Source of the DNA: Candidatus Dormiibacterota bacterium
GTDB lineage: Bacteria > Chloroflexota > Dormibacteria > Aeolococcales > Aeolococcaceae
NCBI GenBank assembly: GCA_035995545.1
Contig: DASYKI010000016.1
Span: 664,599-728,598, forward strand
Length of the DNA: 64,000 bases
Reading direction: 5' to 3'
Shown: one piece after another, positions 26,794 through 44,308 of the stretch
How positions within the stretch are numbered: the first letter of the stretch is position 1
Layout: the number at the start of each line of letters is the position of its first letter
Made by a program: the position numbers and the translations under genes
The notes under the pieces: generated by a model
Databases searched by the model: none
What the model saw: only the letters and a program-made list of their open reading frames with translations
What the model was told of the DNA's origin: nothing

Positions 26794-26829
26794 TTGACGC
26801 CCGTGCCAGCCAGCCGCTATGGTCTGACC
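26794..26829 (+). promoter_or_regulatory. sigma70-like promoter (-35 TTGACG, 18-bp spacer, -10 TATGGT) overlapped by palindrome GGTCTGACC (candidate GntR operator) - P1, upstream of the VOC-cupin-hyuAB-ligase unit
   Basis: gcaTTGACGcccgtgccagccagccgcTATGGTCTGACCatcagtctgacc read from the sequence. Confidence 0.5.
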
Positions 26830-26865
26830 ATCAGTCTGACCGTCAACGTTGGGGCTTGTTTGTTC

Positions 26866-27351
26866 ATGCGGATCCTGGGCATGAATCATGCCGTTCTCTA
26901 CGTTCGCGACGCGCAGGTGACCGCGGCGTTCTACGAGGGCCTCCTCGATTTCTCGCGGGTCATCGACGACCCGCGCTTCGTCTTCATGCGAGCCAACGCC
27001 TCGCCCAACCACCACGACGTCGCCTTCTTCACCGTCGGAGCGCAGGCCGCTGACTCCGGCGCCGGACACAGCAGTGTCGGCCTCTACCACGTCGCCTGGG
27101 AGGTGCCCACCCTCGACGACCTCGTCGCCTGCAGGGACCGCCTGGTCGCGGCGGGTGCGCTGGTGGGAGCGAGCGACCACGGCGCCAACAAGTCCCTGTA
27201 CGCGAAGGATCCTGACGGCCTCGAGTTCGAGGTCATGTGGCTGGTGCCCGCCGATCGGTGGGGCGAGGAGGAGCACGAGGCGATCATCCGCCCGCTCCTC
27301 CTCGACGACGAGGTGGCCAGGGACCGCGAGCTCAGTGGGAGAGTGGGATGA
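26866..27351 (+). CDS. VOC (glyoxalase/bleomycin-resistance/dioxygenase) family protein
   Basis: MRILGMNHAVLYVRDAQVTAAFYEGLLDF..HHDVAFF..GLYHVAWEV..GASDHGANKSLYAKDPDGLEFEV - paired beta-alpha-beta-beta-beta modules. Confidence 0.6.
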   Translation: MRILGMNHAVLYVRDAQVTAAFYEGLLDFSRVIDDPRFVFMRANASPNHHDVAFFTVGAQAADSGAGHSSVGLYHVAWEVPTLDDLVACRDRLVAAGALVGASDHGANKSLYAKDPDGLEFEVMWLVPADRWGEEEHEAIIRPLLLDDEVARDRELSGRVG

Positions 27352-27773
27352 ACCCCGTCACCCGGGGTCCGTCCCAGCCCGGCCTGGACGGACGTGACGC
27401 GGCGGACGGTGCGGCGGAGCGCCACGTCTGGCTGGCATCGGACGCGGACGCCCACGTCGAGTCGTCGCCGGGTTTGCGCCGCCGCATCCTCACCGGCCGG
27501 GACATGATGGTCGCCATGTGGCGGATCCGGGCGGGGTCGGGGCCGACGCCCTACGGCAACCACGCCGGCAACGAGCAGTTCGGCATCATCCTGCGCGGCT
27601 CGCTCGACTTCCGAATCAACGGTGAGCGGCGCGTGCTCGGGCCTGGCGACGTGTACTGGGCGCCGCCCGGCTGCGACCACGGCGACAGCCGCTTCGCCGG
27701 CGACGCCGACTCCGACGAGTGCTGGATCGCCGACATCTTCTGTCCGCCACGCGAGGACTACCGCAATGGCTGA
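27348..27773 (+). CDS. cupin-domain protein
   Basis: ATG 27348 overlaps the VOC stop (ATGA). The cupin barrel has the GNHAGNEQFGIILRGSLDFRINGERRVLGPGDVYWAPPGCDHG motif pattern. Confidence 0.6.
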   Translation: MNPVTRGPSQPGLDGRDAADGAAERHVWLASDADAHVESSPGLRRRILTGRDMMVAMWRIRAGSGPTPYGNHAGNEQFGIILRGSLDFRINGERRVLGPGDVYWAPPGCDHGDSRFAGDADSDECWIADIFCPPREDYRNG

Positions 27774-27810
27774 GTTGCGCAATGGCTGAGTCGTGCAATG
27801 GCTGACTGGC
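27763..27810. repeat. 3 tandem copies of a 16-bp unit (CAATGGCTGAGTTGCG / CAATGGCTGAGTCGTG / CAATGGCTGACTGGCG) spanning the cupin stop and hyuA start
   Basis: Read from the sequence. Copy 1 holds the cupin stop (AAT GGC TGA). Copy 3 holds the hyuA start (ATG GCT GAC). Each of copies 1 and 2 also contains an ATG followed by an in-frame TGA 7 codons later. Confidence 0.85.
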
Positions 27811-29924
27811 GCCTGGCCGTCGACATCGGCGGCACCTTCACCGACGTGGTGCTGCTCGACGCGGCGTCGGGCCGCGTGCTCACCGAGAAGACGCTGACCA
27901 CACCCGCGGACCCGCTGCAGGGCCTGCGGCGCGGTGTCGACGCACTGCTGTCGCGCGCCGCGGTCGAGCCCCGCGCCATCTCGCGCGCCACGGTGCACGC
28001 GACCACGCTGGTGACCAACGCGCTGATCGAGGGCAAGGGTGCGCGTACGGCGCTGGTGACCACCAGCGGCTTCGCGGACACCCTGCTGATCCGCAACGAG
28101 CACCGCTACGACATGTACGACCTGCAGATCGAGTTCCCCCCACCACCGGTGCCGCGTGAACTCACCTTCGAGGTCGACGAGCGCACCACCGCTGAGGGCG
28201 AGCTGCGCCGCGTGCCGGATATGGCCGCCGTCGACGAGCTCGCCGAGCAGCTCCGGGCGGCGGACGTGCAGGCGGTCGCCGTCTGCTTTCTGCACAGCTA
28301 CGCAAATCCGGCCAACGAACGCGAGGTCGGTGCGCGCCTGGCCGAGCTGCTGAACGTGCCGGTGTGCGTCTCCAGCGACGTCGCGCCGCAGATCCGCGAG
28401 TATCCCCGCGCGGTGACCACCGCGTGCAACGCGATCACCATGCCACTGGTCAGCCGCTACCTCGGCGAGCTGTCCGCGTGGCTGCAGGAGCGTGGCATCG
28501 GCGCAGGGCTGCAGATCATGCTCAGCAACGGGGGAGTGGTCGCGCCCGACGTCGCCGTGCGCATGCCGGTCCGCCTCGTCGAGTCGGGACCCGCCGCCGG
28601 TGCCCTGGCGGGGGCCTGGTACGCCGAGCGGCTCGGGGAGAGCCGGCTGCTCTGCTTCGACATGGGCGGGACAACGGCCAAGGCGTGCCTGATCGAGGAC
28701 TTCGAGCCGGCCCTGGCGGTCGACTTCGAAGTCGCCCGGGTGTACCGCTTCAAGCGCGGGTCGGGATACCCGGTGACGGTGCCGTCCATCGACCTGGTGG
28801 AGATCGGCGCCGGCGGCGGCAGCCTGGCGCGGGTCGACAGCCTCGGCCTGCTCAAGGTCGGCCCGGAGTCGTCCGGCGCCGAGCCCGGGCCGGCGTGCTA
28901 CGCCCGTGGTGGCACGGCTGCCGCCGTGACCGACTGCGACCTGCTGCTCGGCTATCTCGACCCCGAGCACTTTCTCGGCGGCGACATGCGCCTCGACCGC
29001 ACGGCCGCGGAGCGCGCTGTGGCCGGCCTGGCCGGCGAGCTCGGAGTCACCGTCGAGGCCGCAGCCATGGGCGTCCACGAAGTTGTCAACCAGAACATGG
29101 CCGCCTCGGCGCGCATGCACGCGGTCGAGCGCGGTGTCGATCTTCGCGGTGTCACCCTGCTCGCCTTCGGCGGAGCCGGGCCCGTGCACGCCTGCGGTGT
29201 CGCCGAGCTGCTCCAGGCTGACCGCGTCGTCTTCCCTCCGGACGCCAGCGTGCTGAGCGCCTTCGGCACCCTGGTCACTCCCATGCGCGTCGACCTCGCG
29301 CGCACGCTGGTGCGCCCGCTCGACGGAGTCGACGCTGCCGAGCGTGACGCTCTCCTCGCCGAACTGCGCGACGACGCTGTGCGCTCGCTGCAGAGTGCCG
29401 GCATCGAGGCCGCCGACATCCGGGTGCGCTACGGCGTGGACGCGCGCTACACGGGCCAGGGCCACGAGATCACGGTGTGGCTGGGCGAGGGCGACGGCTG
29501 GCCGGTCGATGCCGCGGAGGCGCAGCGGCGATTCGAGGAGGAGTACGCCCGCGTCTACGGACTCTCCATCGGCGGCATCCCCGTCGAGGTGGTCACCTGG
29601 CGTGTCGCCGTGTACGCGCCGGCGCCTGCACTGGACCGGCGCGGCGCGGCGCCGGCCGGCGAGGCGCAGCAACCCCGGCATCGCCTCGCCCACTTCGGCC
29701 GCAGCTCGCCGCCGGTGGAGGTGCCGGTGTTCGAGCGCCAGGCACTTGCGGTGGGGACGGTGATCGACGGTCCCGCCGTGGTCGAGCAGCGCGACACCAC
29801 CACGGTGCTGCGTCCCGGCTGGCGCGCCACGGTGGCGCCGGACGGGTCGCTCCTCGCCGTCCGTGTCGCCGTGGCCGGTGCCGTTCCCGCGCTCACCGAC
29901 CTCGCCGGCATCGCCGGTGCCTGA
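27798..29924 (+). CDS. hyuA: hydantoinase/oxoprolinase family protein, A subunit (ATP-dependent N-methylhydantoinase A / acetone-carboxylase-beta-like)
   Basis: 708 aa; N-terminal AVDIGGTFTDVVL (ASKHA ATPase fold), conserved Hydantoinase_A core. Confidence 0.85.
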   Translation: MADWRLAVDIGGTFTDVVLLDAASGRVLTEKTLTTPADPLQGLRRGVDALLSRAAVEPRAISRATVHATTLVTNALIEGKGARTALVTTSGFADTLLIRNEHRYDMYDLQIEFPPPPVPRELTFEVDERTTAEGELRRVPDMAAVDELAEQLRAADVQAVAVCFLHSYANPANEREVGARLAELLNVPVCVSSDVAPQIREYPRAVTTACNAITMPLVSRYLGELSAWLQERGIGAGLQIMLSNGGVVAPDVAVRMPVRLVESGPAAGALAGAWYAERLGESRLLCFDMGGTTAKACLIEDFEPALAVDFEVARVYRFKRGSGYPVTVPSIDLVEIGAGGGSLARVDSLGLLKVGPESSGAEPGPACYARGGTAAAVTDCDLLLGYLDPEHFLGGDMRLDRTAAERAVAGLAGELGVTVEAAAMGVHEVVNQNMAASARMHAVERGVDLRGVTLLAFGGAGPVHACGVAELLQADRVVFPPDASVLSAFGTLVTPMRVDLARTLVRPLDGVDAAERDALLAELRDDAVRSLQSAGIEAADIRVRYGVDARYTGQGHEITVWLGEGDGWPVDAAEAQRRFEEEYARVYGLSIGGIPVEVVTWRVAVYAPAPALDRRGAAPAGEAQQPRHRLAHFGRSSPPVEVPVFERQALAVGTVIDGPAVVEQRDTTTVLRPGWRATVAPDGSLLAVRVAVAGAVPALTDLAGIAGA

Positions 29925-29942
29925 CACAAAGGAGTGCGGTCG

Positions 29943-31541
29943 ATGCCGGTCGTGATCGACGCCGTCGAGCTGGAGGTGCTCTGGGGCAACCTGGTCAACA
30001 CCGTCAACGAGCAGGCGCGGGCCCTGCAGCGCGCCGCCTTCAGCCCCATCGTCCGCGAGGCGGGCGACCTGGCCAACGCGCTCTTCGACCAGCGCGGCCG
30101 CATGGTCGCCCAGGCGGTCACCGGCACGCCCGGCCACATCAACTCGCTGGCCATGGCGGCGCGCGAGATCCTCGCCGAGTATCCGCCGCAGGCGCTCGAA
30201 CCGGGGGATGTTCTGGTCACCAATGACCCGTACAAGACGGCCGGGCAGCTCCTCGACGTCACCGTGCTGACACCGGTGTGGCGCCAGCAGCGGATCATCG
30301 GCTTCTTCGGCTCGACCATCCATCACACCGATGTCGGCGGCTACGGGATCGGCGCGGGTGCTCGCGATGTGTTCGAGGAGGGCCTCTGGATCCCCATCAC
30401 CCGGCTGATGGTGGGCGGGCAACGCAACGTCGAGGCGTGGAAGTTCATCCTCGCCAACGTCCGCGAGCCCGACCACATGGCCGGAGACCTGCACGCGCAG
30501 ATGGCCTCCGCCGAGGTCGGTGCCCAGCGCCTGAACGCCCTCTGCGACGCGCGCGGTCTCGACGACATCGAGGCGCTCGCGGACGAGGTGATCCGCCGCT
30601 CCGAGGAGGCGACTCGCGCCGCCATCCGCCGCCTTCCCGCCGGGACCTACGAGGCGGAGTCGACGCTGGACCTTGCCGACGGCTCGGAGATCGTCATCCA
30701 CGTCGCGGTCACCGTCGACACCGAGAAGGGCGAGATCGCCGTCGACTACGCCGGCTCGTCACCGGCCAGCCCCTTCGGCATCAACGTGGTCAAGAACTAC
30801 ACCCAGGCGTACACCACCTTCACCATCCGCAGCGTCCTCAACCCCGAGGTGCCCAACAACACCGGCAGCCTGGCGCCGATCGTCGTCGACGCGCCCGCGG
30901 GCAGCATCGTCAACGCGCAGCTCCCGGCGCCGTGCACCGCGCGCCACGTGGTGGGCATGTTCCTGCCCATGCCGCTCCTCCAGGCGCTGAGCCGGTTCCT
31001 GCCCGAGGCGGTCATGGCCGAGGGGGCCGCGGCGGTCTGGACCATGCAGGTGCACGGCCACCGGCACGACGGCAGGCCCTTCGTCACCTCGATGTTCAAC
31101 TACGCCGGCGGAACCGGTGCGCGGGCGCACAAGCCCGGGCTGTCCGCCACCGCCTATCCCACCGGGGTCGCGGCGGTGCCGGTCGAGGTCGTCGAGGCGT
31201 CGGCTCCGCTGCTGTTCCTGCGCAAGGAGCTGCGCGAGGACTCCGGGGGTGTGGGACGCAGCCGGGGCGGCATGGGACAGGTGATCGAATTCACCGTCGA
31301 CACCGGCCGGCCCTGGATGCTCAACGCCGTCACCAGCAGGCTGCGCCACGGCCCGGCCGGGCTGTTCGGCGGCGGCCCCGGTGCGGTGGGCCGCTTCGTG
31401 GTCAACGGCGAGCCGGTGACCACGCAGCGCCGCATCGACCTGGAGTCCGGCGACCTGGTCCGCCTCGAGCTGCCCGGTGGCGGCGGCTACGGAGAACCGC
31501 TGCCCGCCGGTGCGGCCGGTGCCGGGAGCGCGGATGGATGA
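29943..31541 (+). CDS. hyuB: hydantoinase B/oxoprolinase family protein
   Basis: 532 aa; typical N-terminus (DAVELEVLWGNLVNTVNEQARALQRAAFSPIVREAGD) and LVTNDPY-type segments; directly follows hyuA. Confidence 0.85.
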   Translation: MPVVIDAVELEVLWGNLVNTVNEQARALQRAAFSPIVREAGDLANALFDQRGRMVAQAVTGTPGHINSLAMAAREILAEYPPQALEPGDVLVTNDPYKTAGQLLDVTVLTPVWRQQRIIGFFGSTIHHTDVGGYGIGAGARDVFEEGLWIPITRLMVGGQRNVEAWKFILANVREPDHMAGDLHAQMASAEVGAQRLNALCDARGLDDIEALADEVIRRSEEATRAAIRRLPAGTYEAESTLDLADGSEIVIHVAVTVDTEKGEIAVDYAGSSPASPFGINVVKNYTQAYTTFTIRSVLNPEVPNNTGSLAPIVVDAPAGSIVNAQLPAPCTARHVVGMFLPMPLLQALSRFLPEAVMAEGAAAVWTMQVHGHRHDGRPFVTSMFNYAGGTGARAHKPGLSATAYPTGVAAVPVEVVEASAPLLFLRKELREDSGGVGRSRGGMGQVIEFTVDTGRPWMLNAVTSRLRHGPAGLFGGGPGAVGRFVVNGEPVTTQRRIDLESGDLVRLELPGGGGYGEPLPAGAAGAGSADG

Positions 31542-33067
31542 CCGCCCCGGCCGGCACGCTGGCGGGTCGCTGGCAGCGCGCCGTCGCCGCCGTCCCCCTG
31601 CGCACCTTCCTGGTCTGGGAGGGATCTGACGCCGCCCTGCACTCCTGGACCTACGCGCGTTTCGACGCGCTGGTGGAGGAGGTCGCCGCGGGGCTGGCGG
31701 CGCGCGGTGTCGTCGCCGGGATGCGCGTCCACGTCGTCCTGGCCAACTCGCCGGCGTTCGTGGCCACCTGGCTGGCCGTGGCCAGGATGGGCGCGTGCAT
31801 GGTGCCGTCCGACCCGCGCTCGTCGCCGGTCGAGCTGGGCGTCCACGCCGCCCGGACGGCACCGGCGGTGGCCGTGGTCGGCCGCGGCAGCGCGGATGCG
31901 TACGCCGCGGGGGTCGCGGCCGGTGGGCCGGACGTGGTCGTCGTCGACGAGGACGACGTCGAGCTGACGCCGCTGCGCCGTCGCGCCGCCGCGCCCTCGC
32001 CGTCGCACCCTGTGCGGCCACGCGATCCCTGCGCCATCCTCTTCACCTCGGGCACCACCGCGGCGCCCAAGGGAGTTGTGGTCACACAGGGCAATTACGC
32101 GTTCGCCGGCGACGTCATGGCCGCCGCGGCCGGGCTCGGGGCCGCGGATCGCTACATCGTCGTGCTGCCGCTCTTCCACGCCAACGCCCAGTACTACGCG
32201 TTCGCGCCGGCGATCAGCGTGGGCGCGTCGGTGGCCCTCGTGCATGCGTTCTCGGCGACAGCGTTCCTCACCCAGGCGGCCCGGCATCGGGCCACCCACG
32301 CCAGCCTCTTCGCGGCGCCGCTGCGGATGATCCTGGCGCGTGGCACGCCGTCCCGGCCGGTGCGCCTGCGCCACTGCTGGTATGCGCAGAACGTCACCGC
32401 CGACCAGTACGAGCAGATGGCGCTGCTCCTCGGCTGCCGGCCGCGCCAGCTCTACGGGATGACCGAGACGATTCCCGCCGTGCTCAGCAGTGGTCCGCTG
32501 TCACCGCGCCACGACAGCATGGGCGAGGTCACCTTGGGCTGCGACGTCGACCTGCACGACGCCGAGGGCCGCCCTGTGCGCGACGGCGACGCGGGCGAGA
32601 TCGTGGTGCGCGGCACTCGCGGTGGCACGCTGTTCGACGGCTACCTCGACGACGAGGCCACCACGCGGGAGAGCTTCGCGGGCGGTGTCTTCCGCACCGG
32701 CGACCGGGCCTTTCGCGACGGCGACGGCCGCCACTACTTCGCCGGCCGCCGCGGCGACATGCTCAAGGTGTCCGGCGAGAACGTCTCCGCCGTCGAGGTG
32801 GAGGCTGTGCTGGCCGCGCACCCGGGGGTCTTCGAGGCGGCGGTCACCGGCATGCCCGACGACGTGCGCGACGAGGTCCCGGTGGCCTGGGTGGTGCGCG
32901 CCACCGGCCACGAGTCCGTCGACGAGGAGTCGCTGCTGGGCTGGTGCGCCACCCGCCTGTCGCCGGCCAAGCGTCCCCGCGCCGTGCACTTCGTCGACGA
33001 GCTGCCGCGCACATCGGTGGGCAAGATTCGCAAGTTCCTGCTCAGTGTTCCCCGTGGCCCGCGGTAG
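31538..33067 (+). CDS. AMP-dependent synthetase/ligase (acyl-CoA ligase)
   Basis: ATG 31538 overlaps the hyuB stop (ATGA). Carries the AMP-binding motif ILFTSGTTAAPKGVV, and YGMTETIP, GEIVVRG, GDMLKVSGENVS and the final GKIRK lysine. Confidence 0.8.
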   Translation: MTAPAGTLAGRWQRAVAAVPLRTFLVWEGSDAALHSWTYARFDALVEEVAAGLAARGVVAGMRVHVVLANSPAFVATWLAVARMGACMVPSDPRSSPVELGVHAARTAPAVAVVGRGSADAYAAGVAAGGPDVVVVDEDDVELTPLRRRAAAPSPSHPVRPRDPCAILFTSGTTAAPKGVVVTQGNYAFAGDVMAAAAGLGAADRYIVVLPLFHANAQYYAFAPAISVGASVALVHAFSATAFLTQAARHRATHASLFAAPLRMILARGTPSRPVRLRHCWYAQNVTADQYEQMALLLGCRPRQLYGMTETIPAVLSSGPLSPRHDSMGEVTLGCDVDLHDAEGRPVRDGDAGEIVVRGTRGGTLFDGYLDDEATTRESFAGGVFRTGDRAFRDGDGRHYFAGRRGDMLKVSGENVSAVEVEAVLAAHPGVFEAAVTGMPDDVRDEVPVAWVVRATGHESVDEESLLGWCATRLSPAKRPRAVHFVDELPRTSVGKIRKFLLSVPRGPR

Positions 33068-33093
33068 ACCCGGCATGCCGCCCCGACGCCACG

Positions 33094-33123
33094 TTGTCAG
33101 ACCATCTGACTATCAGTTATGCT
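33094..33123 (+). promoter_or_regulatory. sigma70-like promoter (-35 TTGTCA, 18-bp spacer, -10 TATGCT) with palindrome GTCAGACC-A-TCTGAC in the spacer (candidate GntR autoregulatory operator) - P2, upstream of the GntR gene
   Basis: acgTTGTCAGACCATCTGACtatcagtTATGCTggcc read from the sequence, ~100 bp upstream of ATG 33220. Confidence 0.45.
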
Positions 33124-33219: not shown

Positions 33220-33939
33220 ATGACGATCGTAGCGGGTCACTTCGGGCCCGTCGACAGGCGCACCGTGTCCCAGGAGGTGCGGGACCGGCTCTTCGAAGCC
33301 ATCCGCTCTGGGGCGCTGCGGCCCGGCGCGGCACTGCCGTCGGAGCGCTCGCTGTGCGACGACTTCGGCGTGGCCAGGACGTCGGTGCGTGAGGCCATCC
33401 AGGGCCTGGTCTCCCTCGGCCTGCTGGAACGGCGCAGCAACCGGACCTACGTGGCCGAGCTGCTGCCCGACCTCCCGGTCTCCGCCGCCGACAACCGCAA
33501 GGTCAAGGTCTCCGAGCTGTTCGAGGTCCGCGAGGCCATCGAGGTGCCGATGGTGCGCCTCACCGCCGCGCGGGCCAGCGACCGCCAGCGCGCCGAGATC
33601 GCCGAGCTGGCGGGCCGCTTCTCGCCGCGCATGGCGGTCGAGGACTTCCGCCGGCAGGATTACGAGTTCCACTCCAAGCTGGCCGCCGCCTGCGGCAACG
33701 ACCTGCTCGCCGAGCTGTACGGCAAGGTGCTCGATCGACTCTTCCACGCCAACGAGTTCTCGTCACTTCTGACGGCAACGGTCAACCGCCGCGCGGTGCG
33801 GCAGATCATCCGCGACTCGGTGGCCAGCCATCAGGCGATTGCCGACGCGGTGATGCGCCGATCCGCAGCCGATGTCACCGCGTCGGTGGAGGCCCATCTC
33901 GCCCAGGTCGAGTCGCAGCTCAACGCCGAGCTGATATGA
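33220..33939 (+). CDS. GntR-family transcriptional regulator, FadR/FCD subfamily
   Basis: N-terminal winged HTH (LPSERSLCDDFGVARTSVREAIQGLVSLGLLERR) plus an all-alpha C-terminal FCD-like domain. Confidence 0.8.
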   Translation: MTIVAGHFGPVDRRTVSQEVRDRLFEAIRSGALRPGAALPSERSLCDDFGVARTSVREAIQGLVSLGLLERRSNRTYVAELLPDLPVSAADNRKVKVSELFEVREAIEVPMVRLTAARASDRQRAEIAELAGRFSPRMAVEDFRRQDYEFHSKLAAACGNDLLAELYGKVLDRLFHANEFSSLLTATVNRRAVRQIIRDSVASHQAIADAVMRRSAADVTASVEAHLAQVESQLNAELI

Positions 33940-34018
33940 GCGGTCCGTGACCCGCGGGTCCGACCAGGGCCGGCTGCGGCCGGCACCGTCGTCCGTGGGC
34001 GCGGGCAAGCAGCGTCGC

Positions 34019-34777
34019 ATGCGGCGGCTCTTCCGCGAGGACGGCCGCACCCTCATGGTCGCCCTCGACCATGCCCTGGTGACCGGGCGCGGGCCCGGCT
34101 ATGCGCGCGAGGTGGCCGCGGTCGCGGCCGCGCGCCCCGACGCCGTCCTGGTCACCTGGCACATGGCCCGCTCCGGTGCCGGCCTATTCGCGCAGTCCGG
34201 CCTGGTGCTCCGCCTCGACGGTGGCATGACCGACCTGGGCACCGGCCAGGCCGGCGACGTCAGCGCCACCCTGTACAGCGTCGAGGACGCCCTGGCGATG
34301 GGAGCTGACGCGGTGATCGTGCTGGCCTACCCGGGGCGGCACGACGAGCACCACTCCCTGCGCCGCCTCGCCGCACTGTGCGCGCGCTGCGAGCAGTTCG
34401 GACTCCCCGTCGTCGCCGAGGCGATCCCCGGCGGCTGGGGCCAGGAGATTCCCTGGACCGTCGACTCGGTCGCGCGCGCGGCGAGGATCACCGCGGAGCT
34501 CGGCGCCGACGTGGTCAAGACCATCTGCCCCGGCGAGCCGTCCGACTTCGCCGCGGTCGTCGAGGCGTGCCCGGTCCCGGTGGTCGCCCTGGGCGGCCCA
34601 CCCGTCGAGTCCGAGGACGCGGTGATCGAGCTGGCGCGCGGCGTGGTCCGCGCCGGCGCCGCCGGCATCGCCTTCGGCCGCAACGTCTGGGGCGCCGCCG
34701 ACCCCGCGACGATGGTGCGCCGCCTCGAGGAGGCGGTCCACTGCGATGGCTCTGCCGCCGCCGTCGACCATGGCTAG
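34019..34777 (+). CDS. class I aldolase of the DhnA/FbaB (DeoC/LacD-like) family
   Basis: Begins MRRLFREDGRTLMVALDHAL.. with a Schiff-base-lysine-type region (ADVVKT). The exact substrate is unknown. Confidence 0.6.
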   Translation: MRRLFREDGRTLMVALDHALVTGRGPGYAREVAAVAAARPDAVLVTWHMARSGAGLFAQSGLVLRLDGGMTDLGTGQAGDVSATLYSVEDALAMGADAVIVLAYPGRHDEHHSLRRLAALCARCEQFGLPVVAEAIPGGWGQEIPWTVDSVARAARITAELGADVVKTICPGEPSDFAAVVEACPVPVVALGGPPVESEDAVIELARGVVRAGAAGIAFGRNVWGAADPATMVRRLEEAVHCDGSAAAVDHG

Positions 34778-35819
34778 CGCGATGCGCCACCGCCCCCTGG
34801 GCAGAAGCGGGCTGCAGGTCAGCAGCATGGCCCTGGGCACGATGATGTTCGGCGCCTGGGCGAACAGGGATCGCGCCGATTGCATTCGCATCATCCACGC
34901 GGCGCTCGACGCCGGCATCAACCTCGTCGACACCGCCGACGTGTACTCGAACGGCGAGGCCGAGGAGATCGTCGGCGAGGCGCTGGCCGGGCGTCGTGAC
35001 GACGTGCTCGTCGCCACCAAGCTGCACGCGCCGATGGGCGACGACGTCAACCGCCGCGGCGGCTCGCGGCGGTGGATCATCCGCGCCTGCGAGGAGAGCC
35101 TGCGCCGCCTGCGCACCGACTGGATCGACATCTACCAGCTGCACCGCCCGGATCCCGGCTGCGACCTCGACGAGACGCTGTCGGCGCTGTCCGACCTGGT
35201 CCACCAGGGCAAGGTGCGGCTGATCGGCTCGTCGACGTTCCAGGCGGAGGAGATCGTCGAGGCGCTGTGGATGTCCGATGCGCGCGGCCACGTGCGGCTG
35301 CGCAGCGAGCAGGCCCCCTACAGCCTGCTCACCCGCGGCGCCGAGACGGCGGTGCTGCCGACCTGCGCGCGCCACGGCATGGGCGTCATCACCTACGCGC
35401 CGCTGGGCGGCGGGTGGCTGAGCGGACGCTACCGCCGAGGCGAGGCGCTGCAGGCCTCGCCGCGCACGGCGACGTTCCTGGCCCAGTTCGACCCGGCGCT
35501 GCCGCACAACGCGCGCAAGCTCGACGCCATCGAGCAGCTCGCCGGCATCGCCGATGCCCGGGGCATCTCGCTGATGCACCTCAGCCTGGCGTTCGCGGCC
35601 AGCCACCCGGCGGTCAGCTCGATGATCCTCGGCCCGCGCACCCTGGAGCAGCTGCAGGGCCAGCTGCCGGCGCTCGACGTGCAGCTCGACGGGGCGGTGC
35701 TCGACGCCATCGACGCCGTCATCCCGCCGGGCACCACGGTGGATCCGCGCGACGCCGGCTACGCGATCGGGGACAGCTCCGGCATGTGGCACCTGCGCGC
35801 GATCGGGCGGGCCTCGTGA
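34770..35819 (+). CDS. aldo/keto reductase
   Basis: Carries AKR motifs MRHRPLGRSGLQVSSMALGTMMFG, INLVDTADVY and the catalytic tetrad context. The start ATG overlaps the aldolase stop. Confidence 0.8.
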   Translation: MASAMRHRPLGRSGLQVSSMALGTMMFGAWANRDRADCIRIIHAALDAGINLVDTADVYSNGEAEEIVGEALAGRRDDVLVATKLHAPMGDDVNRRGGSRRWIIRACEESLRRLRTDWIDIYQLHRPDPGCDLDETLSALSDLVHQGKVRLIGSSTFQAEEIVEALWMSDARGHVRLRSEQAPYSLLTRGAETAVLPTCARHGMGVITYAPLGGGWLSGRYRRGEALQASPRTATFLAQFDPALPHNARKLDAIEQLAGIADARGISLMHLSLAFAASHPAVSSMILGPRTLEQLQGQLPALDVQLDGAVLDAIDAVIPPGTTVDPRDAGYAIGDSSGMWHLRAIGRAS

Positions 35820-36853
35820 GCGGGACGGGCAGCAGCCGGGTGGCCGTGATCACCGGGCCGGGCGAGGTGGAGCTTCGCGAGGAGCCCTCCACGGCCGCGC
35901 TGGGCCTCGACGAGGTGCTGGTGGCGGTCGCGGCCTGCGGCATCTGCACCATGGAGCGCCGGCTCTTCCTCGGCGAGAAGCCGATGTACCCGATCGCGCC
36001 GGGCCACGAGGTGAGCGGCCACATCGTCGCCCGGGGCGAGGCGGTGGCCGCCATCCCCGGTGCCCCCGAGGTGGGCGACCAGGTGGCCATCGACTTCTTC
36101 GTGCGCTGCGGGGTGTGCGCGCCCTGCCGCCGGGGGCGCAGCGCGGTCTGCCAGCACCCCCAGGGCGGGGCGCTGTCGGACGGGACTCTCGCGCTGGGCG
36201 GTGGCTTTGCCGACGTGCTGCGCGTCCGGGCGTCGCAGGTGTGGCCCTGCGGAGATGCACCGCGCGCCCACGCGACGATGGGCGAGCCGCTCGCCTGCGT
36301 GGCCCATTCCTTCCGCGCCGCCGGCTTCCAGGCGGGGGATCGCGTGGTCATCGTCGGCGGCGGCTACATGGGGCGCCTCCACCTCGCCGTCGCTCAGCTG
36401 CTGGGAGCGGTGTCGGCCGGCGTCGTCGACGTCGACCCGGAGCGGCGGGCTGCCGCAGCCACGGCGGGCGCCAGCTGGGTGGCCGCCCCCGACGCCCTCG
36501 CGGAGTGCCCGAGCAGCGACGTGGTGTTCGTCACCGCCGGGGCGCCCGGGGTGCTCGGGGCCGCCGTCGGGCTTGCCGCGGTGGGCGCCACCGTCGTCCT
36601 CTTCGGCGCGTTTCCCAAGGCCGACCGGCAAGCGGTGGCTCCGGACCACCTCCACCACGCCGAGCTCTCGCTGCGCGGCGTCTGCAACCACGAGCCGGAG
36701 GACTGGCGAACCGCCACCAGCTGGATCCGTGCCGGGGTGCTCGCCGCCGACCTCGACGCCCTGGTGTCGGCCAGCTTCGCGCTCGACGCCGTCCGCGACG
36801 CGCTGGTGCTGGCCACCACGACGCCGGTCTACCGCGTCCTGGTCGGCGGCTGA
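35816..36853 (+). CDS. zinc-binding alcohol dehydrogenase (MDR family)
   Basis: Starts at a GTG overlapping the AKR stop. Contains the MDR Zn site CGICTMERRLF..GHEVSGHIVA and structural-Zn cysteines C..C..C in FFVRCGVCAPCRRG. Confidence 0.7.
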   Translation: MSGTGSSRVAVITGPGEVELREEPSTAALGLDEVLVAVAACGICTMERRLFLGEKPMYPIAPGHEVSGHIVARGEAVAAIPGAPEVGDQVAIDFFVRCGVCAPCRRGRSAVCQHPQGGALSDGTLALGGGFADVLRVRASQVWPCGDAPRAHATMGEPLACVAHSFRAAGFQAGDRVVIVGGGYMGRLHLAVAQLLGAVSAGVVDVDPERRAAAATAGASWVAAPDALAECPSSDVVFVTAGAPGVLGAAVGLAAVGATVVLFGAFPKADRQAVAPDHLHHAELSLRGVCNHEPEDWRTATSWIRAGVLAADLDALVSASFALDAVRDALVLATTTPVYRVLVGG

Positions 36854-36858
36854 ACCAG

Positions 36859-37839
36859 GTGGCGCCGTCGGGGCCAGGACCGGCCGGCGAGGTGGACGGT
36901 CGCGTCGCCCGGATGCTGCCGGAGTGGTGCGAGGAGTGGCTCGGCTCACCCGTCGCCACGGTGCTGTTCGAGGCCGGCCACCTCTCCACGGTGGTGGGGG
37001 TGGAGCTGGCCGACGGCCGCCAGGTGGTGGTCAAGGTGCGCCCATGGGAGCCCCGCCTGCAGGCCTGCGACGCCGTGCATCGCCACCTCTGGGGGCTCGG
37101 CTTTCCCTGTCCGCGGCCGCTGGCCGAGCTCACCCGCGTGGCCGGCGAGGCCGTCAGCGCCGAGGCGCTGGTCCCCGGCGGAGACGAGCTGCCGTCCGGC
37201 GGCGGGACGGCCGAGCTGTTCGCCCGGCTGCTCGCCCGCCTCGTCGCCGCCGCTCCGCCGCCGGAGAGCCTCGCCAGCCTGGATCCGCCCGCCCCCTGGC
37301 TCTGGGGTGACCACCCCGGCACGGCCCTCTGGCCGCGCGCCGACGACACCGACGCCGACCTCAACGCGGCCACCGAGCCGGCCTGGCTGGACGAGATGGC
37401 GGCCGCGGTGCGGGCGCGGCTTCGCGCGTCGGCCCTGCCCGCGGTGGTGGGCCACGGCGACTGGCGGCGCTCCAACCTGCGCTGGAGCGGACCCCACCCC
37501 ATGGTCGTGCACGACTGGGACAGCGTGGTCGCGCTTCCCGAGCCGGTGATCGCCGGCGCGGCGGCGCTCTCCTTTCCCAACGACACCGACGCCACCACCG
37601 CGAGCGTCGCCGAGTGCGCGGTGTTCCTCGCCGCCTACGCCGCCGCCAGGAAACGCCCGTGGTCGCCGGCAGAGCTCGAGGTGTGCTGGGCGGCGGGCCT
37701 GTGGGTGTTCGCCTTCAACGCCAAGAAGGAGAGCCTGGCGGGCGCGGCCGGGGGCCCCATGGGCGAGCGTCTCCGCGGCGAGGCGGCCCAACGCCTGCGG
37801 CTGGCCGGATGCAGCCCGTCCCACCCGAGCCGGAGGTAG
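36859..37839 (+). CDS. phosphotransferase-family protein (APH/choline-kinase-like kinase fold)
   Basis: Brenner-motif-like VVGHGDWRRSNLRW and downstream VVHDWD; the N-terminus is uncertain, with a GTG at 36859 or an ATG near 36913. Confidence 0.5.
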   Translation: MAPSGPGPAGEVDGRVARMLPEWCEEWLGSPVATVLFEAGHLSTVVGVELADGRQVVVKVRPWEPRLQACDAVHRHLWGLGFPCPRPLAELTRVAGEAVSAEALVPGGDELPSGGGTAELFARLLARLVAAAPPPESLASLDPPAPWLWGDHPGTALWPRADDTDADLNAATEPAWLDEMAAAVRARLRASALPAVVGHGDWRRSNLRWSGPHPMVVHDWDSVVALPEPVIAGAAALSFPNDTDATTASVAECAVFLAAYAAARKRPWSPAELEVCWAAGLWVFAFNAKKESLAGAAGGPMGERLRGEAAQRLRLAGCSPSHPSRR

Positions 37840-37843
37840 CCCC

Positions 37844-38611
37844 ATGCCCGAGTTCACCGCATACCCGACGCACACCCCGGCGTGGGTGGACGTGGCCAGT
37901 GACGACGTCGCCGCGTCGGTCTCCTTCTACTCCGGGATGTTCGGCTGGGCTGCGCCCGCGACCGCGGACGCGGCGGGATACCGGCTGCTCACCCTGCGCG
38001 AGCGCGTCGTCGCCGGAATTCGGCCGCGGGTCGCCGGCGAGACCCGCCCGGTCTGGACGGTGGGCCTGGCCGTGGCGGAGCTGGGCGGCGAGTGCGAGCG
38101 CGTCCTGGCCGCGGGGGGCAGCGTGGTCGCGCCCTCGCTCGACGCCGCGGGTGCCGGCAGGCTGGCAGTGGTGCGCGACCCGGAGGGCGCGCCGTTCGGG
38201 CTGTGGCAGGCGGGCGCACTGCCCGGCGTCGAGCTGGCCAACGAGCCCGGCACGTGGTGCTGGAACGAGGTGCTGAGCGGCGACCTCGACGCGGCCATCG
38301 CCTTCTACGGCGGGCTCTTCGGCTGGAACGCCGAGCGGATGCCGCGCGAGGACGCCGTGTACTACGAGCTCAGACCGGCCGAGCGAGCCGTGACCGGCCT
38401 GATGCCGGTCGCCGACCGCTGGGCCACTCCCATGGCGCCGCACTGGGTCGTCTACTTCGTCGTCGAGAGCTGCGACGCCGCGGTGGCCAGGGCCGAGGCC
38501 CTGGGCGGCGAGGTGCTGGCGCCGGCGGTCGACGTGCCGGTGGGGCGCTTCGCCATCCTCGCCGACCCGGCCGGCGCCATGTTCGCGGTGGTGCAGTTCG
38601 CACCCGCTTGA
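37844..38611 (+). CDS. VOC-family protein with two glyoxalase-like domains
   Basis: Two repeats of the VDVASDDVAASVSFYSGMFGW / NEVLSGDLDAAIAFYGGLFGW module. Confidence 0.6.
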   Translation: MPEFTAYPTHTPAWVDVASDDVAASVSFYSGMFGWAAPATADAAGYRLLTLRERVVAGIRPRVAGETRPVWTVGLAVAELGGECERVLAAGGSVVAPSLDAAGAGRLAVVRDPEGAPFGLWQAGALPGVELANEPGTWCWNEVLSGDLDAAIAFYGGLFGWNAERMPREDAVYYELRPAERAVTGLMPVADRWATPMAPHWVVYFVVESCDAAVARAEALGGEVLAPAVDVPVGRFAILADPAGAMFAVVQFAPA

Positions 38612-38646
38612 CACCCCGCGGCCGGCTCGTCAGTATCGGTCAGACC
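38608..38646 (+). promoter_or_regulatory. sigma70-like promoter (-35 TTGACA, 17-bp spacer, -10 CAGTAT) followed by palindrome GGTCAGACC (candidate GntR operator) - P4, upstream of the VOC-SDR-HpcH unit
   Basis: cgcTTGACAccccgcggccggctcgtCAGTATcGGTCAGACCaactgttagacagt read from the sequence. Confidence 0.45.
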
Positions 38647-38709
38647 AACTGTTAGACAGTCCTTTGCCATCCGTGGAGACCAGCGCTGAACACCCTCGTC
38701 TTCGTCGAC

Positions 38710-39078
38710 ATGCCCGCCGCCGACCTCGACGCCGCCACCGCGTTCTACGAGCGCCTCTTCGGCTGGCAGATCAATCCGCGCCCGCGTGGGGAGTTCCACC
38801 AGATGGTGCCCGGCGAGGGCCTGCACCTCGGCCTCTTCTCCGAGACCGGCCAGCCGCCGGACCCCGATCCCGGTCCGCCCCCGCCGCGCAGCAGCAACCA
38901 GCCGCGCGTCTACATCCTGGTCGACTCGACGCCGGCCGACTACCTGGCGCGCGCCGTCGAACTCGGGGCCACGGTGGTGTGGGAACAGCAGTGGTGGAGC
39001 GAGTTCGACGGCCATCACGCCTCCTTCCGGGATCCCTGGGGCAACCAGATCGTGTTGTGGAACTACCGCGGCGAATGA
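38710..39078 (+). CDS. small VOC/glyoxalase-like protein
   Basis: MPAADLDAATAFYERLFGW..; no in-frame start lies upstream (stop at 38653), so the N-terminus is slightly short for the fold. Confidence 0.5.
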   Translation: MPAADLDAATAFYERLFGWQINPRPRGEFHQMVPGEGLHLGLFSETGQPPDPDPGPPPPRSSNQPRVYILVDSTPADYLARAVELGATVVWEQQWWSEFDGHHASFRDPWGNQIVLWNYRGE

Positions 39079-39875
39079 GCGCGCAGCTGCTCTCCGGCAA
39101 GGTCGCCCTGGTCACCGGGGCGGGCATGGGCATCGGGCGGGCCACCGCTGAGGCGTTCGCCGCGGCGGGCGCGCGCGTGGTCGTGTCCGACCTCGACGTG
39201 GCCGCCGCCGAGGTCGTGCGCCACGGCATCGAGTCGGCGTCGGGCACGGCCATCGCCTGCGCCTGTGACGTCACCTCGGCAGCCGACGCCGCTCGCGTGG
39301 TGGCGCGCACCGAGCGCGAGTACGGTGGGGTGGACATCGTTGTGGCCAATGCCGGCATCAACGTGTACGGCACGGTGGACAGCACCGACGAGGCCACCTG
39401 GGACCGCATCTACGCGGTCAACGTCAAGGGCGTCTACAACGCCGCGCACCACGGCATCCCGGCCCTGAAGCGGCGCGGCGGTGGCGCCTTCCTGGCCACG
39501 GCGTCCGACCAGGCCCTGCTTCCCCGGGCCGGCTCGGTCGCCTACAGCTCGGGCAAGGCGGCGGTGATCACCATGGTCAAGGTGATGGCCCTCGACCACG
39601 GTCCGGACAACATCCGGGTCAACTGCGTGTGCCCCGGCCCGACGCGCACGGCCATGGCCGCCCAGTCGATGGAGCGGTTCGGCGTCACCGAGGCGGATGT
39701 CGGGGTCAACGTGCCGCTGCAGCAGCGTTTCGCGGAGCCCGAGGAGGTGGCCAGCGTGCTGCTCTTCCTCGCCTCCGACATGGCCGCCTTCGTGACCGGC
39801 GAAGCCATCCTCGTCGACGGCGGCCACGCCGCCGGCGTGTTCACCGCCACCGCACCGCAGGCGCAGACCGCGTGA
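39075..39875 (+). CDS. SDR-family oxidoreductase
   Basis: VALVTGAGMGIGRA, NAG (VANAGI), YSSGKAAV (YxxxK); the ATG overlaps the previous stop. Confidence 0.8.
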   Translation: MSAQLLSGKVALVTGAGMGIGRATAEAFAAAGARVVVSDLDVAAAEVVRHGIESASGTAIACACDVTSAADAARVVARTEREYGGVDIVVANAGINVYGTVDSTDEATWDRIYAVNVKGVYNAAHHGIPALKRRGGGAFLATASDQALLPRAGSVAYSSGKAAVITMVKVMALDHGPDNIRVNCVCPGPTRTAMAAQSMERFGVTEADVGVNVPLQQRFAEPEEVASVLLFLASDMAAFVTGEAILVDGGHAAGVFTATAPQAQTA

Positions 39876-39887
39876 GCCGGGCGTGAG

Positions 39888-40676
39888 ATGAGCGGCAACC
39901 GGCTGCGCGCGCGCTGGGACGCCGGCGAGGTGGCGGTGGGCGCGTGGTGCAGCCTGGGTTCGCCCTTCGCCGCCGAGCTCTGTGCCGCCGAGGGCTTCGA
40001 CTACGTGTGCGCCGACCTCCAGCACGGCCTCATGCACTTCGACACCCTGGGCCCGATGATGATCGCCGTCGGTCGCACCGCGGCGGCGCCCGTCGTGCGC
40101 GTGCCGGCCAACCAGCGGCACTACATGGGCATGGCCCTCGACGCCGGCGCCGAGGCGGTGATCGTGCCCATGGTCAACTCGCGCAGCGAGGCGGAGATGG
40201 CGGTCAGCGGCTGCCGCTACCCGCCGGAGGGCACGCGCAGCTTCGGGCCGGTGCGTGCCGGGATGTTCACGACCGGGTCGCCGGCGGCGATCAATCGCGG
40301 GGTGCTGTGCCTGGTGATGATCGAGACCATCGCGGCTGTCGAGCATGCCGGCGAGATCTGTTCGACGCCGGGCGTCGACGGCGTCTACATCGGGCCCGCC
40401 GACCTGGCCGTCAGCATGGGACTGGCGCCACAACTCGGCGACATGGGCAGTGCGCACGCGCAGGCCATCGCCCACGTGCGCGCAACCTGCGCCGCCAACG
40501 GCATCGTGGCCGGCATCCACACCGGCGGGGGCGAGCAGGCGGGCGACTACATCGACGCCGGCTTCCGGATGGTCACCCTGAGCACCGACGCGGCGCTGCT
40601 CAGGCAGGTGCACCGCACCGAGCTCGCCACCGCCCGCGGCCGCGCGCTGAGCTCGGCGGCAGCCCCGTCCCCCTAG
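39888..40676 (+). CDS. HpcH/HpaI-family aldolase (class II, divalent-metal; 2-keto-3-deoxy-acid aldolase-like)
   Basis: 262 aa; the pattern GAWCSLGSPFAAELCAAEGFDYVCADLQHG, later VMIETIAAVEH and GVDGVYIGPADL is typical of this TIM-barrel family. Confidence 0.75.
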   Translation: MSGNRLRARWDAGEVAVGAWCSLGSPFAAELCAAEGFDYVCADLQHGLMHFDTLGPMMIAVGRTAAAPVVRVPANQRHYMGMALDAGAEAVIVPMVNSRSEAEMAVSGCRYPPEGTRSFGPVRAGMFTTGSPAAINRGVLCLVMIETIAAVEHAGEICSTPGVDGVYIGPADLAVSMGLAPQLGDMGSAHAQAIAHVRATCAANGIVAGIHTGGGEQAGDYIDAGFRMVTLSTDAALLRQVHRTELATARGRALSSAAAPSP

Positions 40677-40690
40677 CTGTGGGCCGAGGC

Positions 40691-40726
40691 TTGACCGCCT
40701 GTCCGGCGATCGATTATGGTCTGACC
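40691..40726 (+). promoter_or_regulatory. sigma70-like promoter (-35 TTGACC, 18-bp spacer, -10 TATGGT) overlapped by palindrome GGTCTGACC (candidate GntR operator) - P3, upstream of the 12.5-kb SBP-to-Rieske-less operon
   Basis: gcTTGACCgcctgtccggcgatcgatTATGGTCTGACCatcagttgatcagt read from the sequence. A 7-codon mini-ORF ATGGCTGACACAATCGGAGCGTAG lies between it and the SBP start. Confidence 0.5.
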
Positions 40727-40769
40727 ATCAGTTGATCAGTATGGCTGACACAATCGGAGCGTAGACTGC

Positions 40770-44301: not shown

Positions 44302-44308
44302 CGCCGAG

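What the first reader, a model, noticed from the sequence alone, without database searches (positions are those of the whole stretch)
26794..40726. Four promoters each overlapped by a GGTCWGACC palindrome: candidate GntR operator controlling a ~27-kb catabolic supercluster
At 26794-26829, 33094-33123, 38608-38646 and 40691-40726 the same architecture recurs: a -35-like TTGAC(G/A/C) or TTGTCA, a 17-18-bp spacer, and a -10-like TAnnnT. A palindrome (T/G)GTC(T/A)GACC with a conserved ATCAGT/ACTGT flank overlaps the -10/+1. GGTC-N-GACC is the classic GT-N-AC core of FadR/GntR-family operators. One site sits ~100 bp upstream of the GntR gene itself (autoregulation). The others precede each transcription unit of the cluster. 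Finding four copies, all intergenic and all at promoter-compatible spacing, is very unlikely by chance.
Basis: seen in the sequence. Interest (0 to 1): 0.7.

Follow-up and report, generated by a model that had tools for sequence, protein, structure and literature searches.

The report
FadR-type repressor operators at four promoters
Four promoters in a 26-kb catabolic gene cluster of an uncultured Dormibacterota bacterium most likely carry the binding site of the cluster's own GntR/FadR-type repressor; the site's core matches the published LldR operator and recurs beside the same regulator in about 70 other genomes, so this is a sound but ordinary local regulon.

Summary
GTCWGACCA occurs at exactly four places in 64 kb (26822, 33096, 38639, 40719). 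These lie upstream of the first gene and in the only three gaps over 24 bp in a 25-gene, same-strand cluster. A weight matrix trained only on other genomes ranks these four sites top in the window.

The gene at 33220-33939 encodes a GntR-HTH plus FCD (FadR-subfamily) regulator. Its helix residues that contact DNA match those of Corynebacterium glutamicum LldR, whose footprinted operator is TGGTCTGACCA. In 71 of 80 genomes carrying an orthologue, the regulator sits behind the same site. That site usually heads a conserved VOC-GntR-cupin-HyuA-HyuB-CoA-ligase cassette.

S1 (26819-26831) is the orthologous ancestral operator. S4 is equally strong. S2 (autoregulation, over the -35) and S3 are weaker variants, and both variant forms occur at orthologous promoters elsewhere.

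The most likely mechanism is promoter occlusion by a dimeric repressor that a small acid effector releases. Nothing is experimentally shown. The hydantoin effector guess has no support: the hydantoinase operon is a lineage-specific recruit in the loci sampled.

Verdict: new member of a known kind, modest interest.

The parts
26794..26823 (+). S1 promoter: -35 TTGACG (26794-99), 18-nt spacer, -10 TATGGT (26818-23)
   Evidence: Promoter scan. Orthologous to the VOC-operon promoter of sister Dormibacterota loci L201, L001 and L204, with a near-identical spacer in L201.
26819..26831 (.). S1 primary operator ATGGTCTGACCAT. Its left arm is also the -10 hexamer. The extended match TATGGTCTGACCATCAGTC runs to 26836.
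   Evidence: 26.4 of 26.4 bits on the 13-bp matrix and 36.5 of 38.5 on the 20-bp matrix, both trained on other genomes.
26832..26842 (.). Possible second, weak site CAGTCTGACCG, centred 12 bp after the S1 centre
   Evidence: 9.6 bits. The stretch is conserved as CAGTCWGCCAGTCA in sister loci. Not significant on its own.
26866..33067 (+). Transcription unit 1: VOC/glyoxalase, cupin, HyuA-like, HyuB-like, AMP-dependent ligase
   Evidence: Pfam. Gaps between genes are 24 bp or less. This cassette is conserved across loci.
33093..33105 (.). S2 operator GTTGTCAGACCAT, overlapping the -35 TTGTCA (33094-99). The -10 TATGCT lies at 33118-23.
   Evidence: 17.1 bits; promoter scan. The TTGTCAGACCA variant is the site at the orthologous VOC promoter in the Embleya loci and in Sinosporangium.
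33220..33939 (+). GntR-HTH plus FCD (FadR-subfamily) regulator, the proposed binder
   Evidence: PF00392 and PF07729. It is the only such gene in the window. It aligns to LldR structure 2DI3.
33947..38611 (+). Rest of transcription unit 2: DeoC-type aldolase, aldo-keto reductase, Zn alcohol dehydrogenase, APH-type kinase, double VOC protein
   Evidence: Pfam. Gaps are 7 bp or less.
38608..38636 (+). S3 promoter candidate: -35 TTGACA, 17-nt spacer, weak -10 CAGTAT
   Evidence: Read from the sequence. Not called by the scan tool.
38636..38648 (.). S3 operator TCGGTCAGACCAA, over the predicted start site
   Evidence: 14.8 bits. The GACCAACTG flank variant recurs at sites in L005, L011 and L021.
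38649..38659 (.). Possible second site CTGTTAGACAG, a perfect inverted repeat centred 12 bp after the S3 centre
   Evidence: Read from the sequence. The weight-matrix score is low at 4.4 bits. Speculative.
38710..40676 (+). Transcription unit 3: VOC protein, short-chain dehydrogenase, HpcH/HpaI aldolase
   Evidence: Pfam. Homologues of this VOC have a site within 250 bp upstream in 13 of 40 cases.
40691..40720 (+). S4 promoter: -35 TTGACC, 18-nt spacer, -10 TATGGT
   Evidence: Promoter scan.
40716..40728 (.). S4 operator ATGGTCTGACCAT
   Evidence: 26.4 bits on the 13-bp matrix and 31.3 on the 20-bp matrix.
40770..53279 (+). Transcription unit 4, 11 genes: SBP_bac_5 lipoprotein, Rieske oxygenase alpha and beta, two permeases, two ATPases, amidohydrolase, M20 carbamoylase-type amidase, dihydropyrimidinase-type hydantoinase, and a Ring_hydroxyl_A protein without a Rieske domain
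   Evidence: Pfam and NCBIfam. Gaps are 7 bp or less.

Best explanation
The four sites are operators of the FadR-subfamily GntR regulator encoded at 33220-33939.

Proposed mechanism:
- A dimer binds the inverted repeat ATGGTC-W-GACCAT. This has the TNGTNNNACNA form and can extend to CTGATGGTCWGACCATCAG.
- At S1 and S4 the left arm of the repeat is itself the -10 hexamer TATGGT. At S3 the site covers the predicted start site. At S2 it covers the -35.
- Bound protein should therefore exclude RNA polymerase and repress all four units, including its own gene (negative autoregulation).
- A small effector that binds the metal-containing FCD domain would release it. The effector is most likely a carboxylate intermediate of the pathway.

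Evolution:
- S1 is the ancestral operator of a conserved VOC-(GntR)-cupin-HyuA-HyuB-CoA-ligase cassette.
- In this genome the regulator gene has moved behind the ligase gene and has its own site.
- Two further operons, including an ABC transporter, Rieske oxygenase and hydantoinase unit, have been added to the regulon.

Shown: the sites, their positions, their conservation, their co-occurrence with the regulator, and the family of the protein.
Inferred: binding, the sign of regulation, start sites, the effector, and whether S2 and S3 are functional.
For: - Site statistics and positions.
- Protein family: PF00392 plus PF07729. It is the only homologue in the window.
- The LldR DNA-contact residues E31, R32, R42, S44, R46 and E47 correspond to E42, R43, R53, S55, R57 and E58. 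The residues aligning or corresponding by position to the LldR Zn ligands (D147, H151, H204, H226) are invariant among 23 orthologues.
- The published LldR operator TtgTGGTCTGACCAtgA spans -4 to +13, binds with a Kd of 81 nM, and has a second weak adjacent site (PMC2602784). The family consensus is TNGTNNNACNA (PMC11472048).
- Footprinting across genomes: a site lies 250 bp or less upstream of the VOC gene in 50 of 61 cases, of GntR in 42 of 79, of cupin in 3 of 74, of hyuA in 0 of 54 and of hyuB in 0 of 48.
- 71 of 80 regulators lie behind a site.
- Sister loci carry one 26.4-bit site and nothing above 11.5 bits elsewhere.
- In the bare 17-mer metagenome scan, 57 of 120 hits are at the cassette, and 14 more are in high-GC contigs with the same 3' flank.
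- TATGGT is the -10 at 32 of 49 unique orthologous sites.
- All four window sites carry the asymmetric flank in the direction of transcription.
Against: - There is no experimental evidence of binding, start sites or repression in this organism.
- S2 (17.1 bits) and S3 (14.8 bits) are within reach of the best chance hit in random 64-kb sequence (mean maximum 13.3, largest 21.4). They depend on their positions for significance.
- S3 has a poor -10.
- The wing residues crucial in LldR (G63, G65) are N74 and T76 here.
- The TGGT-N3-ACCA core is shared by several FadR-family regulators (LldR, PdhR, FadR), so a paralogue elsewhere in the genome could also bind.
- The rest of the genome could not be scanned.
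- The right flank CAGWCC is more conserved than its mirror on the left, which a symmetric dimer alone does not explain.
Confidence: 0.8

Rival explanations
1. Only S1 and S4 are real operators. S2 and S3 are chance resemblances in AT-richer promoter DNA, so the regulator is not autoregulated and unit 3 is not in the regulon.
For: On the 20-bp matrix S2 scores 14.2 and S3 10.8. Random windows have a mean maximum of 9.9 and reach 21.1. The scan tool does not call the S3 promoter.
Against: - Only about 250 bp of intergenic DNA is available for S2 and S3. About 0.001 chance centres at 14.7 bits or more are expected there.
- Both sites have the exact 9-mer GTCWGACCA, found nowhere else in 64 kb.
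- Both variant forms are used at orthologous promoters in other genomes.
- Autoregulation is the rule in 71 of 80 genomes.
- Homologues of the unit-3 VOC gene have sites in 13 of 40 cases.
Confidence: 0.12
2. The sites are bound by a different FadR-family regulator encoded elsewhere in the genome (an LldR- or PdhR-like paralogue with the same TGGT-N3-ACCA specificity). The local GntR has another target.
For: The same core is used by C. glutamicum LldR, and the same TGGT-N3-ACCA form by E. coli PdhR. The identical 17-mer precedes an L-lactate permease gene in an unrelated contig, L170.
Against: - The motif and this particular orthologue group co-occur across about 70 genomes from Dormibacterota and several actinobacterial lineages, usually in the same operon.
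- No other GntR gene lies in the window.
- No lactate or pyruvate genes are in the regulon.
Confidence: 0.05
3. The protein binds the sites but acts as an activator or dual regulator rather than a repressor.
For: FadR activates fabA from a site near -40 (established knowledge). The S2 site lies over the -35 region.
Against: At S1, S3 and S4 the site covers the -10 or the start site, a position incompatible with activation. The LldR site at -4 to +13 is repressive. FCD regulators of catabolic operons are nearly always repressors, as PMC11472048 describes for DipR and its relatives NatR, MatR and MdcY.
Confidence: 0.03

Closest known systems
LldR (Cgl2915) of Corynebacterium glutamicum and its operator at cgl2917-lldD
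   Same: - It has the same architecture: a GntR winged helix plus a Zn-binding FCD domain.
- The operator core TGGTCTGACCA is identical and overlaps the start site.
- An adjacent weaker second site is reported.
- The helix DNA-contact residues and the Zn ligands are conserved.
   Different: - Sequence relatedness is distant (phmmer E 3e-12 to 2DI3; 67 bits against the LldR model cut-off of 311).
- No lactate permease or lactate dehydrogenase is in the regulon.
- The wing glycines are replaced.
- The effector is unknown.
PdhR and FadR of Escherichia coli
   Same: Both are dimeric FadR-subfamily repressors that recognise TGGT-N3-ACCA inverted repeats (PdhR box AATTGGTnnnACCAATT). The recognition-helix sequence is similar. 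One source names the orthologues 'repressor for pyruvate dehydrogenase complex'.
   Different: The protein scores 62.7 bits against the PdhR model cut-off of 330. The flanks of the box differ (ATGGTC against ATTGGT). The regulon holds no pdh or fad genes. FadR lacks the metal site.
Predicted operator of MSMEG_0596 (FadR subfamily) in Mycobacterium smegmatis
   Same: It is a computational prediction of GTGTGGTCAGACCACAC upstream of an actinobacterial FadR-type regulator, with the same core (PMC2018728).
   Different: It is a single predicted site with no regulon or conservation analysis. Its relation to the present orthologue group was not tested.

Membership tests
GntR superfamily, FadR subfamily (FCD type) | N-terminal GntR winged helix-turn-helix | tested here: met
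   PF00392, E 2.4e-18, residues 17-75.
GntR superfamily, FadR subfamily (FCD type) | C-terminal all-helical FCD effector domain | tested here: met
   PF07729, E 4.1e-19, residues 99-228.
GntR superfamily, FadR subfamily (FCD type) | Asp plus three His metal site of FCD domains | tested here: met
   D147, H151, H204 and H226 are invariant in 23 orthologues. D147 and H151 align to LldR D144 and H148. H204 and H226 are matched by position only, because the alignment to 2DI3 ends at residue 194.
GntR superfamily, FadR subfamily (FCD type) | Operator of the form TNGTNNNACNA (inverted repeat) | tested here: met
   TGGTCTGACCA at S1 and S4, TTGTCAGACCA at S2, CGGTCAGACCA at S3. The consensus is quoted in PMC11472048.
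GntR superfamily, FadR subfamily (FCD type) | Specific binding of the protein to the operator, relieved by an effector | not testable with these tools
   Needs gel shift, footprint or calorimetry with purified protein.
LldR (lactate regulator) orthologues | Sequence reaches the curated LldR model threshold | tested here: not met
   NF007741 scores 67 bits against a cut-off of 311.
LldR (lactate regulator) orthologues | Regulon contains lactate permease or lactate dehydrogenase genes | tested here: not met
   None is present among the 25 cluster genes.
LldR (lactate regulator) orthologues | Operator core TGGTCTGACCA overlapping the promoter or start site | tested here: met
PdhR orthologues | Sequence reaches the curated PdhR model threshold and the regulon contains pdh genes | tested here: not met
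   NF007001 scores 62.7 bits against a cut-off of 330. No pdh genes are present.
Sigma-70-type promoter occluded by a repressor | -35 and -10 hexamers at 16-18 nt spacing with the operator overlapping them or +1 | tested here: inconclusive
   The consensus scan calls S1, S2 and S4 but not S3. No start-site data exist, and promoter rules for Dormibacterota are not established.

The most novel reading that the evidence does not exclude
The regulator-operator pair marks a widespread catabolic pathway that has not been characterised. Its parts are a VOC protein, a cupin, an ATP-dependent HyuAB-type ring-opening or carboxylating enzyme and a CoA ligase. Rieske oxygenases and a Bmp-type ABC transporter often accompany them. 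The pathway occurs in soil and marine Acidimicrobiia, Embleya, some Streptomyces and Dormibacterota. The unusually well conserved 17-21-nt operator would let its full gene set be reconstructed genome by genome. In this Dormibacterota genome the regulon has grown from one operator, as in sister genomes, to four, bringing in a hydantoinase, carbamoylase and transporter operon.
Probability: 0.45. Interest if true: 0.5.

Novelty: new member of a known kind. Interest (0 to 1): 0.3.

Why it matters
The finding gives a well-supported, testable regulon for a phylum (Dormibacterota) that has no cultured model and almost no known transcription-factor sites. It also shows that sigma-70-like -35/-10 promoters with a classical occluding operator are used there.

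More usefully, the operator is a sharp marker for a conserved gene cassette of unknown substrate that occurs in cultured actinobacteria (Embleya, Ilumatobacter, Sinosporangium). The regulator, effector and pathway could be worked out in those strains. The mechanism itself is textbook FadR/LldR-type repression, so nothing about the mode of control is new.

Tried and rejected
- GGTCWGACC alone as a test of significance: rejected, because 10 of 100 shuffles reach three matches. The 9-mer with the A flank and the independent weight matrix were used instead.
- Repeat or mobile-element origin of the sites: rejected. Only 11-18 nt are shared, the sites are conserved at orthologous promoters across phyla, and Rfam finds nothing there.
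- Conservation of the S4 link: the nearest homologues of the S4 binding protein (about 52% identity; L207-L211) lie in amidase operons with other regulators. They have no site above 11.8 bits. S4 therefore looks lineage-specific, and the hydantoin-effector idea gains no support.
- Naming the pathway: NCBIfam gives only sub-threshold matches. Caprolactamase CapA scores 490 bits against a cut-off of 1000 and CapB 190 against 1000. Carnitine-CoA ligase scores 297 against 651. The VOC and cupin proteins match nothing. A full-text search for papers that hold at least five of six gene-family names from the cluster found none.
- Integrase in the neighbouring island: none found among ten ORFs tested.
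Full report
**Source and gene map.** The regulator protein is 100% identical to one annotated from a Candidatus Dormibacteraeota MAG and to contigs of JGI metagenome 3300041409. The window is about 72% G+C. Codon-position G+C and ORF analysis with Pfam and NCBIfam give 25 genes on the + strand from 26866 to 53279.
- Unit 1 (26866-33067): VOC/glyoxalase, cupin, HyuA-like, HyuB-like, AMP-dependent ligase.
- Unit 2 (33220-38611): GntR/FCD regulator, DeoC-type aldolase, aldo-keto reductase, Zn alcohol dehydrogenase, APH-type kinase, double VOC protein.
- Unit 3 (38710-40676): VOC protein, short-chain dehydrogenase, HpcH aldolase.
- Unit 4 (40770-53279): SBP_bac_5 lipoprotein, Rieske oxygenase alpha and beta, two permeases, two ATPases, amidohydrolase, M20 carbamoylase-type amidase, dihydropyrimidinase-type hydantoinase, and a Ring_hydroxyl_A protein without a Rieske domain.

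Within units the gaps are 24 bp or less. The only larger gaps are 152, 98 and 93 bp.

**Observation check.** The four sites are present as described.
- GGTCWGACC alone matches three of them and is not significant.
- GTCWGACCA matches exactly the four sites and nothing else in 64 kb (1.15 strand matches expected, 6 found, 0 of 100 shuffles reach 6).
- S1 and S4 share 18 identical bases.
- The sites fall upstream of unit 1 and in the three large gaps.
- A generic promoter scan of 20 kb returns only S1, S2 and S4 (0.4 expected).

Three corrections apply:
- In S2 the palindrome overlaps the -35 hexamer, and TTGTCA is part of it.
- In S3 the -10 at 17-nt spacing is CAGTAT. This is weak, is not of the TAnnnT form, and is not called by the tool.
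- Only S1 and S4 have the palindrome over the -10 (TATGGT) and the start region.

**Independent scoring.** I built a weight matrix from 42 unique sites found upstream of VOC-gene homologues in other genomes. Its consensus is TATGGTCTGACCATCAGTCC. In the window its top hits are the four sites.
- On the 20-bp matrix S1, S4, S2 and S3 score 36.5, 31.3, 14.2 and 10.8 bits.
- On the 13-bp palindrome matrix they score 26.4, 26.4, 17.1 and 14.8 bits.
- Random 64-kb sequences of the same first-order composition hold on average 0.30, 0.10 and 0.003 centres at 14.7, 17.0 and 24 bits or more. The window holds 4, 3 and 2.
- S1 and S4 are beyond chance on score alone. S2 and S3 need their positions: about 250 bp of available intergenic DNA gives about 0.001 expected.
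- All four carry the asymmetric 3' flank in the direction of transcription.

**Comparative evidence.** A genome-collection scan with an alignment of 23 orthologues of the regulator gave 80 loci. They come from Dormibacterota, Acidimicrobiia (including Ilumatobacter), Embleya, some Streptomyces and Sinosporangium.
- Nearly all loci carry the motif.
- Nearly all share a cassette of VOC, GntR, cupin, HyuA, HyuB and AMP-ligase. In several loci it is followed by a Rieske oxygenase, an RraA-like protein and a Bmp-type ABC transporter.
- A site of 14.5 bits or more lies within 250 bp upstream of the VOC gene in 50 of 61 cases, of the regulator in 42 of 79, and of homologues of the unit-3 VOC in 13 of 40.
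- Before the internal genes the counts are cupin 3 of 74, hyuA 0 of 54 and hyuB 0 of 48.
- Overall 71 of 80 regulators lie behind a site: 42 have their own and 29 sit as a downstream gene in the VOC-led operon.
- TATGGT occupies the -10 position at 32 of 49 unique sites, and a TTGAC-like -35 at 16-19 nt spacing is present at 16 of 49.
- The sister Dormibacterota loci L201, L204 and L001 have one perfect site before the VOC gene and nothing above 11.5 bits elsewhere. Their promoters align with S1, including the spacer. S1 is therefore the ancestral operator.
- The S2 form (TTGTCAGACCA) is the form used at the VOC promoter in Embleya and Sinosporangium.
- The S3 flank (GACCAACTG) recurs in L005, L011 and L021.

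- 57 hits lie next to the cassette.
- 14 more are in high-G+C contigs with the same TCC or ACC continuation. Of the nine of these whose downstream genes I checked, the products are Rieske oxygenases, a Bmp binding protein, an MR/MLE enzyme, an amidohydrolase, a flavin reductase, an HD-domain protein and an ABC ATPase; a tenth hit, a Peripla_BP_6 binding protein (L157), lacks that continuation.
- 42 are in lower-G+C contigs without that continuation, mostly inside long ORFs, and are probably chance coding matches.
- One hit (L170) has TTGACA-N17-TATGGT before an L-lactate permease gene. The same operator therefore serves true lactate regulators elsewhere.

**The protein and what is known.** The regulator has PF00392 plus PF07729, which makes it FadR-subfamily.
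- It falls far below the curated thresholds for NanR, LldR, PdhR and GlcC.
- Its best solved relatives include C. glutamicum LldR, 2DI3.
- The LldR operator is TtgTGGTCTGACCAtgA, at -4 to +13, with a Kd of 81 nM and a second weak adjacent site that takes a second dimer (PMC2602784).
- Residues E31, R32, R42, S44, R46 and E47 of LldR contact DNA, and D144, H148, H196 and H218 hold Zn.
- The window protein has E42, R43, R53, S55, R57 and E58 at the aligned positions. D147, H151, H204 and H226 are invariant in its orthologues. The wing glycines are not conserved.
- The family consensus TNGTNNNACNA (PMC11472048), the PdhR box (PMC7660256) and a predicted M. smegmatis site with the same core (PMC2018728) place the motif squarely within known FadR-type operators.

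**Mechanism.** The most likely reading is a dimeric repressor on a 13-19-bp inverted repeat.
- The repeat doubles as the -10 at S1 and S4, covers the start site at S3, and covers the -35 at S2.
- Repression would be by promoter occlusion, with negative autoregulation through S2.
- An effector bound in the metal-containing FCD domain would give release.
- The conserved right flank CAGWCC and the weak second sites 12 bp downstream at S1 and S3 may take a second dimer, as in LldR. This is speculative.
- Binding, start sites, the sign of regulation and the effector are all inferred.

**Regulon content and evolution.** The conserved core is VOC, cupin, HyuAB and CoA ligase.
- No curated family names its substrate. 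The caprolactamase and carnitine-CoA-ligase models match below threshold.
- The hydantoinase, carbamoylase and ABC operon behind S4 is not part of the conserved core.
- The nearest homologues of its binding protein sit in unrelated amidase operons without the site.
A carboxylate intermediate is the more typical FCD ligand (family knowledge).
- Compared with sister genomes, this genome has moved the regulator gene downstream of the ligase gene and gained three further sites.

**Rivals.**
- S2 and S3 being chance matches: about 0.12.
- A paralogous FadR-type regulator being the true binder: about 0.05.
- Activation instead of repression: about 0.03.
- A repeat-element origin is excluded by the orthologous conservation and the short shared length.

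**Verdict.** The thing itself is a new member of a well-known kind: a local FadR/LldR-type repressor regulon. Its interest is modest. Its value lies in giving Dormibacterota a credible operator and promoter example, and in flagging a widespread cassette of unknown substrate that could be studied in cultured actinobacteria.

Noticed in passing
window 11340-26765: The last 50 bases of tRNA-Thr(GGT) (11365-11414) are repeated exactly at 26716-26765, 29 bp before the S1 -35. The repeat brackets a 15.3-kb stretch of lower G+C (0.67-0.69 against about 0.72). That stretch encodes a LuxR-type response regulator, a GAF histidine kinase, a universal stress protein, a PNPOx-like protein, a Pat-like acetyltransferase/CoA ligase and a PAS-HD protein. 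It looks like an integrated island at the tRNA, but no integrase was found among the ORFs tested.
   Followed up: partly
window 33185-33223: A 12-codon upstream ORF (MNASVELIEAAS) lies in the leader of the regulator gene. It has a GGAGAG Shine-Dalgarno-like sequence 6 nt before it. Its TGA stop overlaps the regulator's ATG as ATGA. It could be translationally coupled or could be chance.
   Followed up: no
window 52230-53279: The last gene of unit 4 has the catalytic Ring_hydroxyl_A domain of Rieske oxygenase alpha subunits but no Rieske domain. It aligns to positions 138-387 of the BenA model.
   Followed up: no
L170, site near 7323 (minus strand of the stored locus): The identical 17-mer, with TTGACA-N17-TATGGT, precedes an L-lactate permease gene in a 54% G+C metagenome contig. 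It is probably a genuine LldR operator in an unrelated bacterium.
   Followed up: partly
window 26832-26845; L201 7201-7214; L001 2031-2044; L204 9480-9493: Downstream of the operator, the Dormibacterota promoters keep a CAGTC-NNN-CAGTC-like stretch (CAGTCWGCCAGTCA; CAGTCTGACCGTCA in the window). Across all phyla the bases CAGWCC after the palindrome are more conserved than their mirror on the left. A symmetric dimer alone does not explain this.
   Followed up: partly
window 40770-40905: A public gene call for the unit-4 binding protein is 488 aa. It starts about 45 codons later than GTG 40770 and would remove what reads as a lipoprotein signal peptide (…LAVSAAACG). Homologues are 515-582 aa, which favours the longer form.
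   Followed up: no
window 54753-54765: The fifth-best palindrome match (GACGGGCTGACCA, 14.4 bits) lies inside the TetR-family gene 54563-55270. It is probably chance.
   Followed up: no
L008 and L003, upstream of the VOC gene: Two loci that lack the canonical site have TTGACTGACAATCA just before the VOC start. This may be a diverged operator.
   Followed up: no
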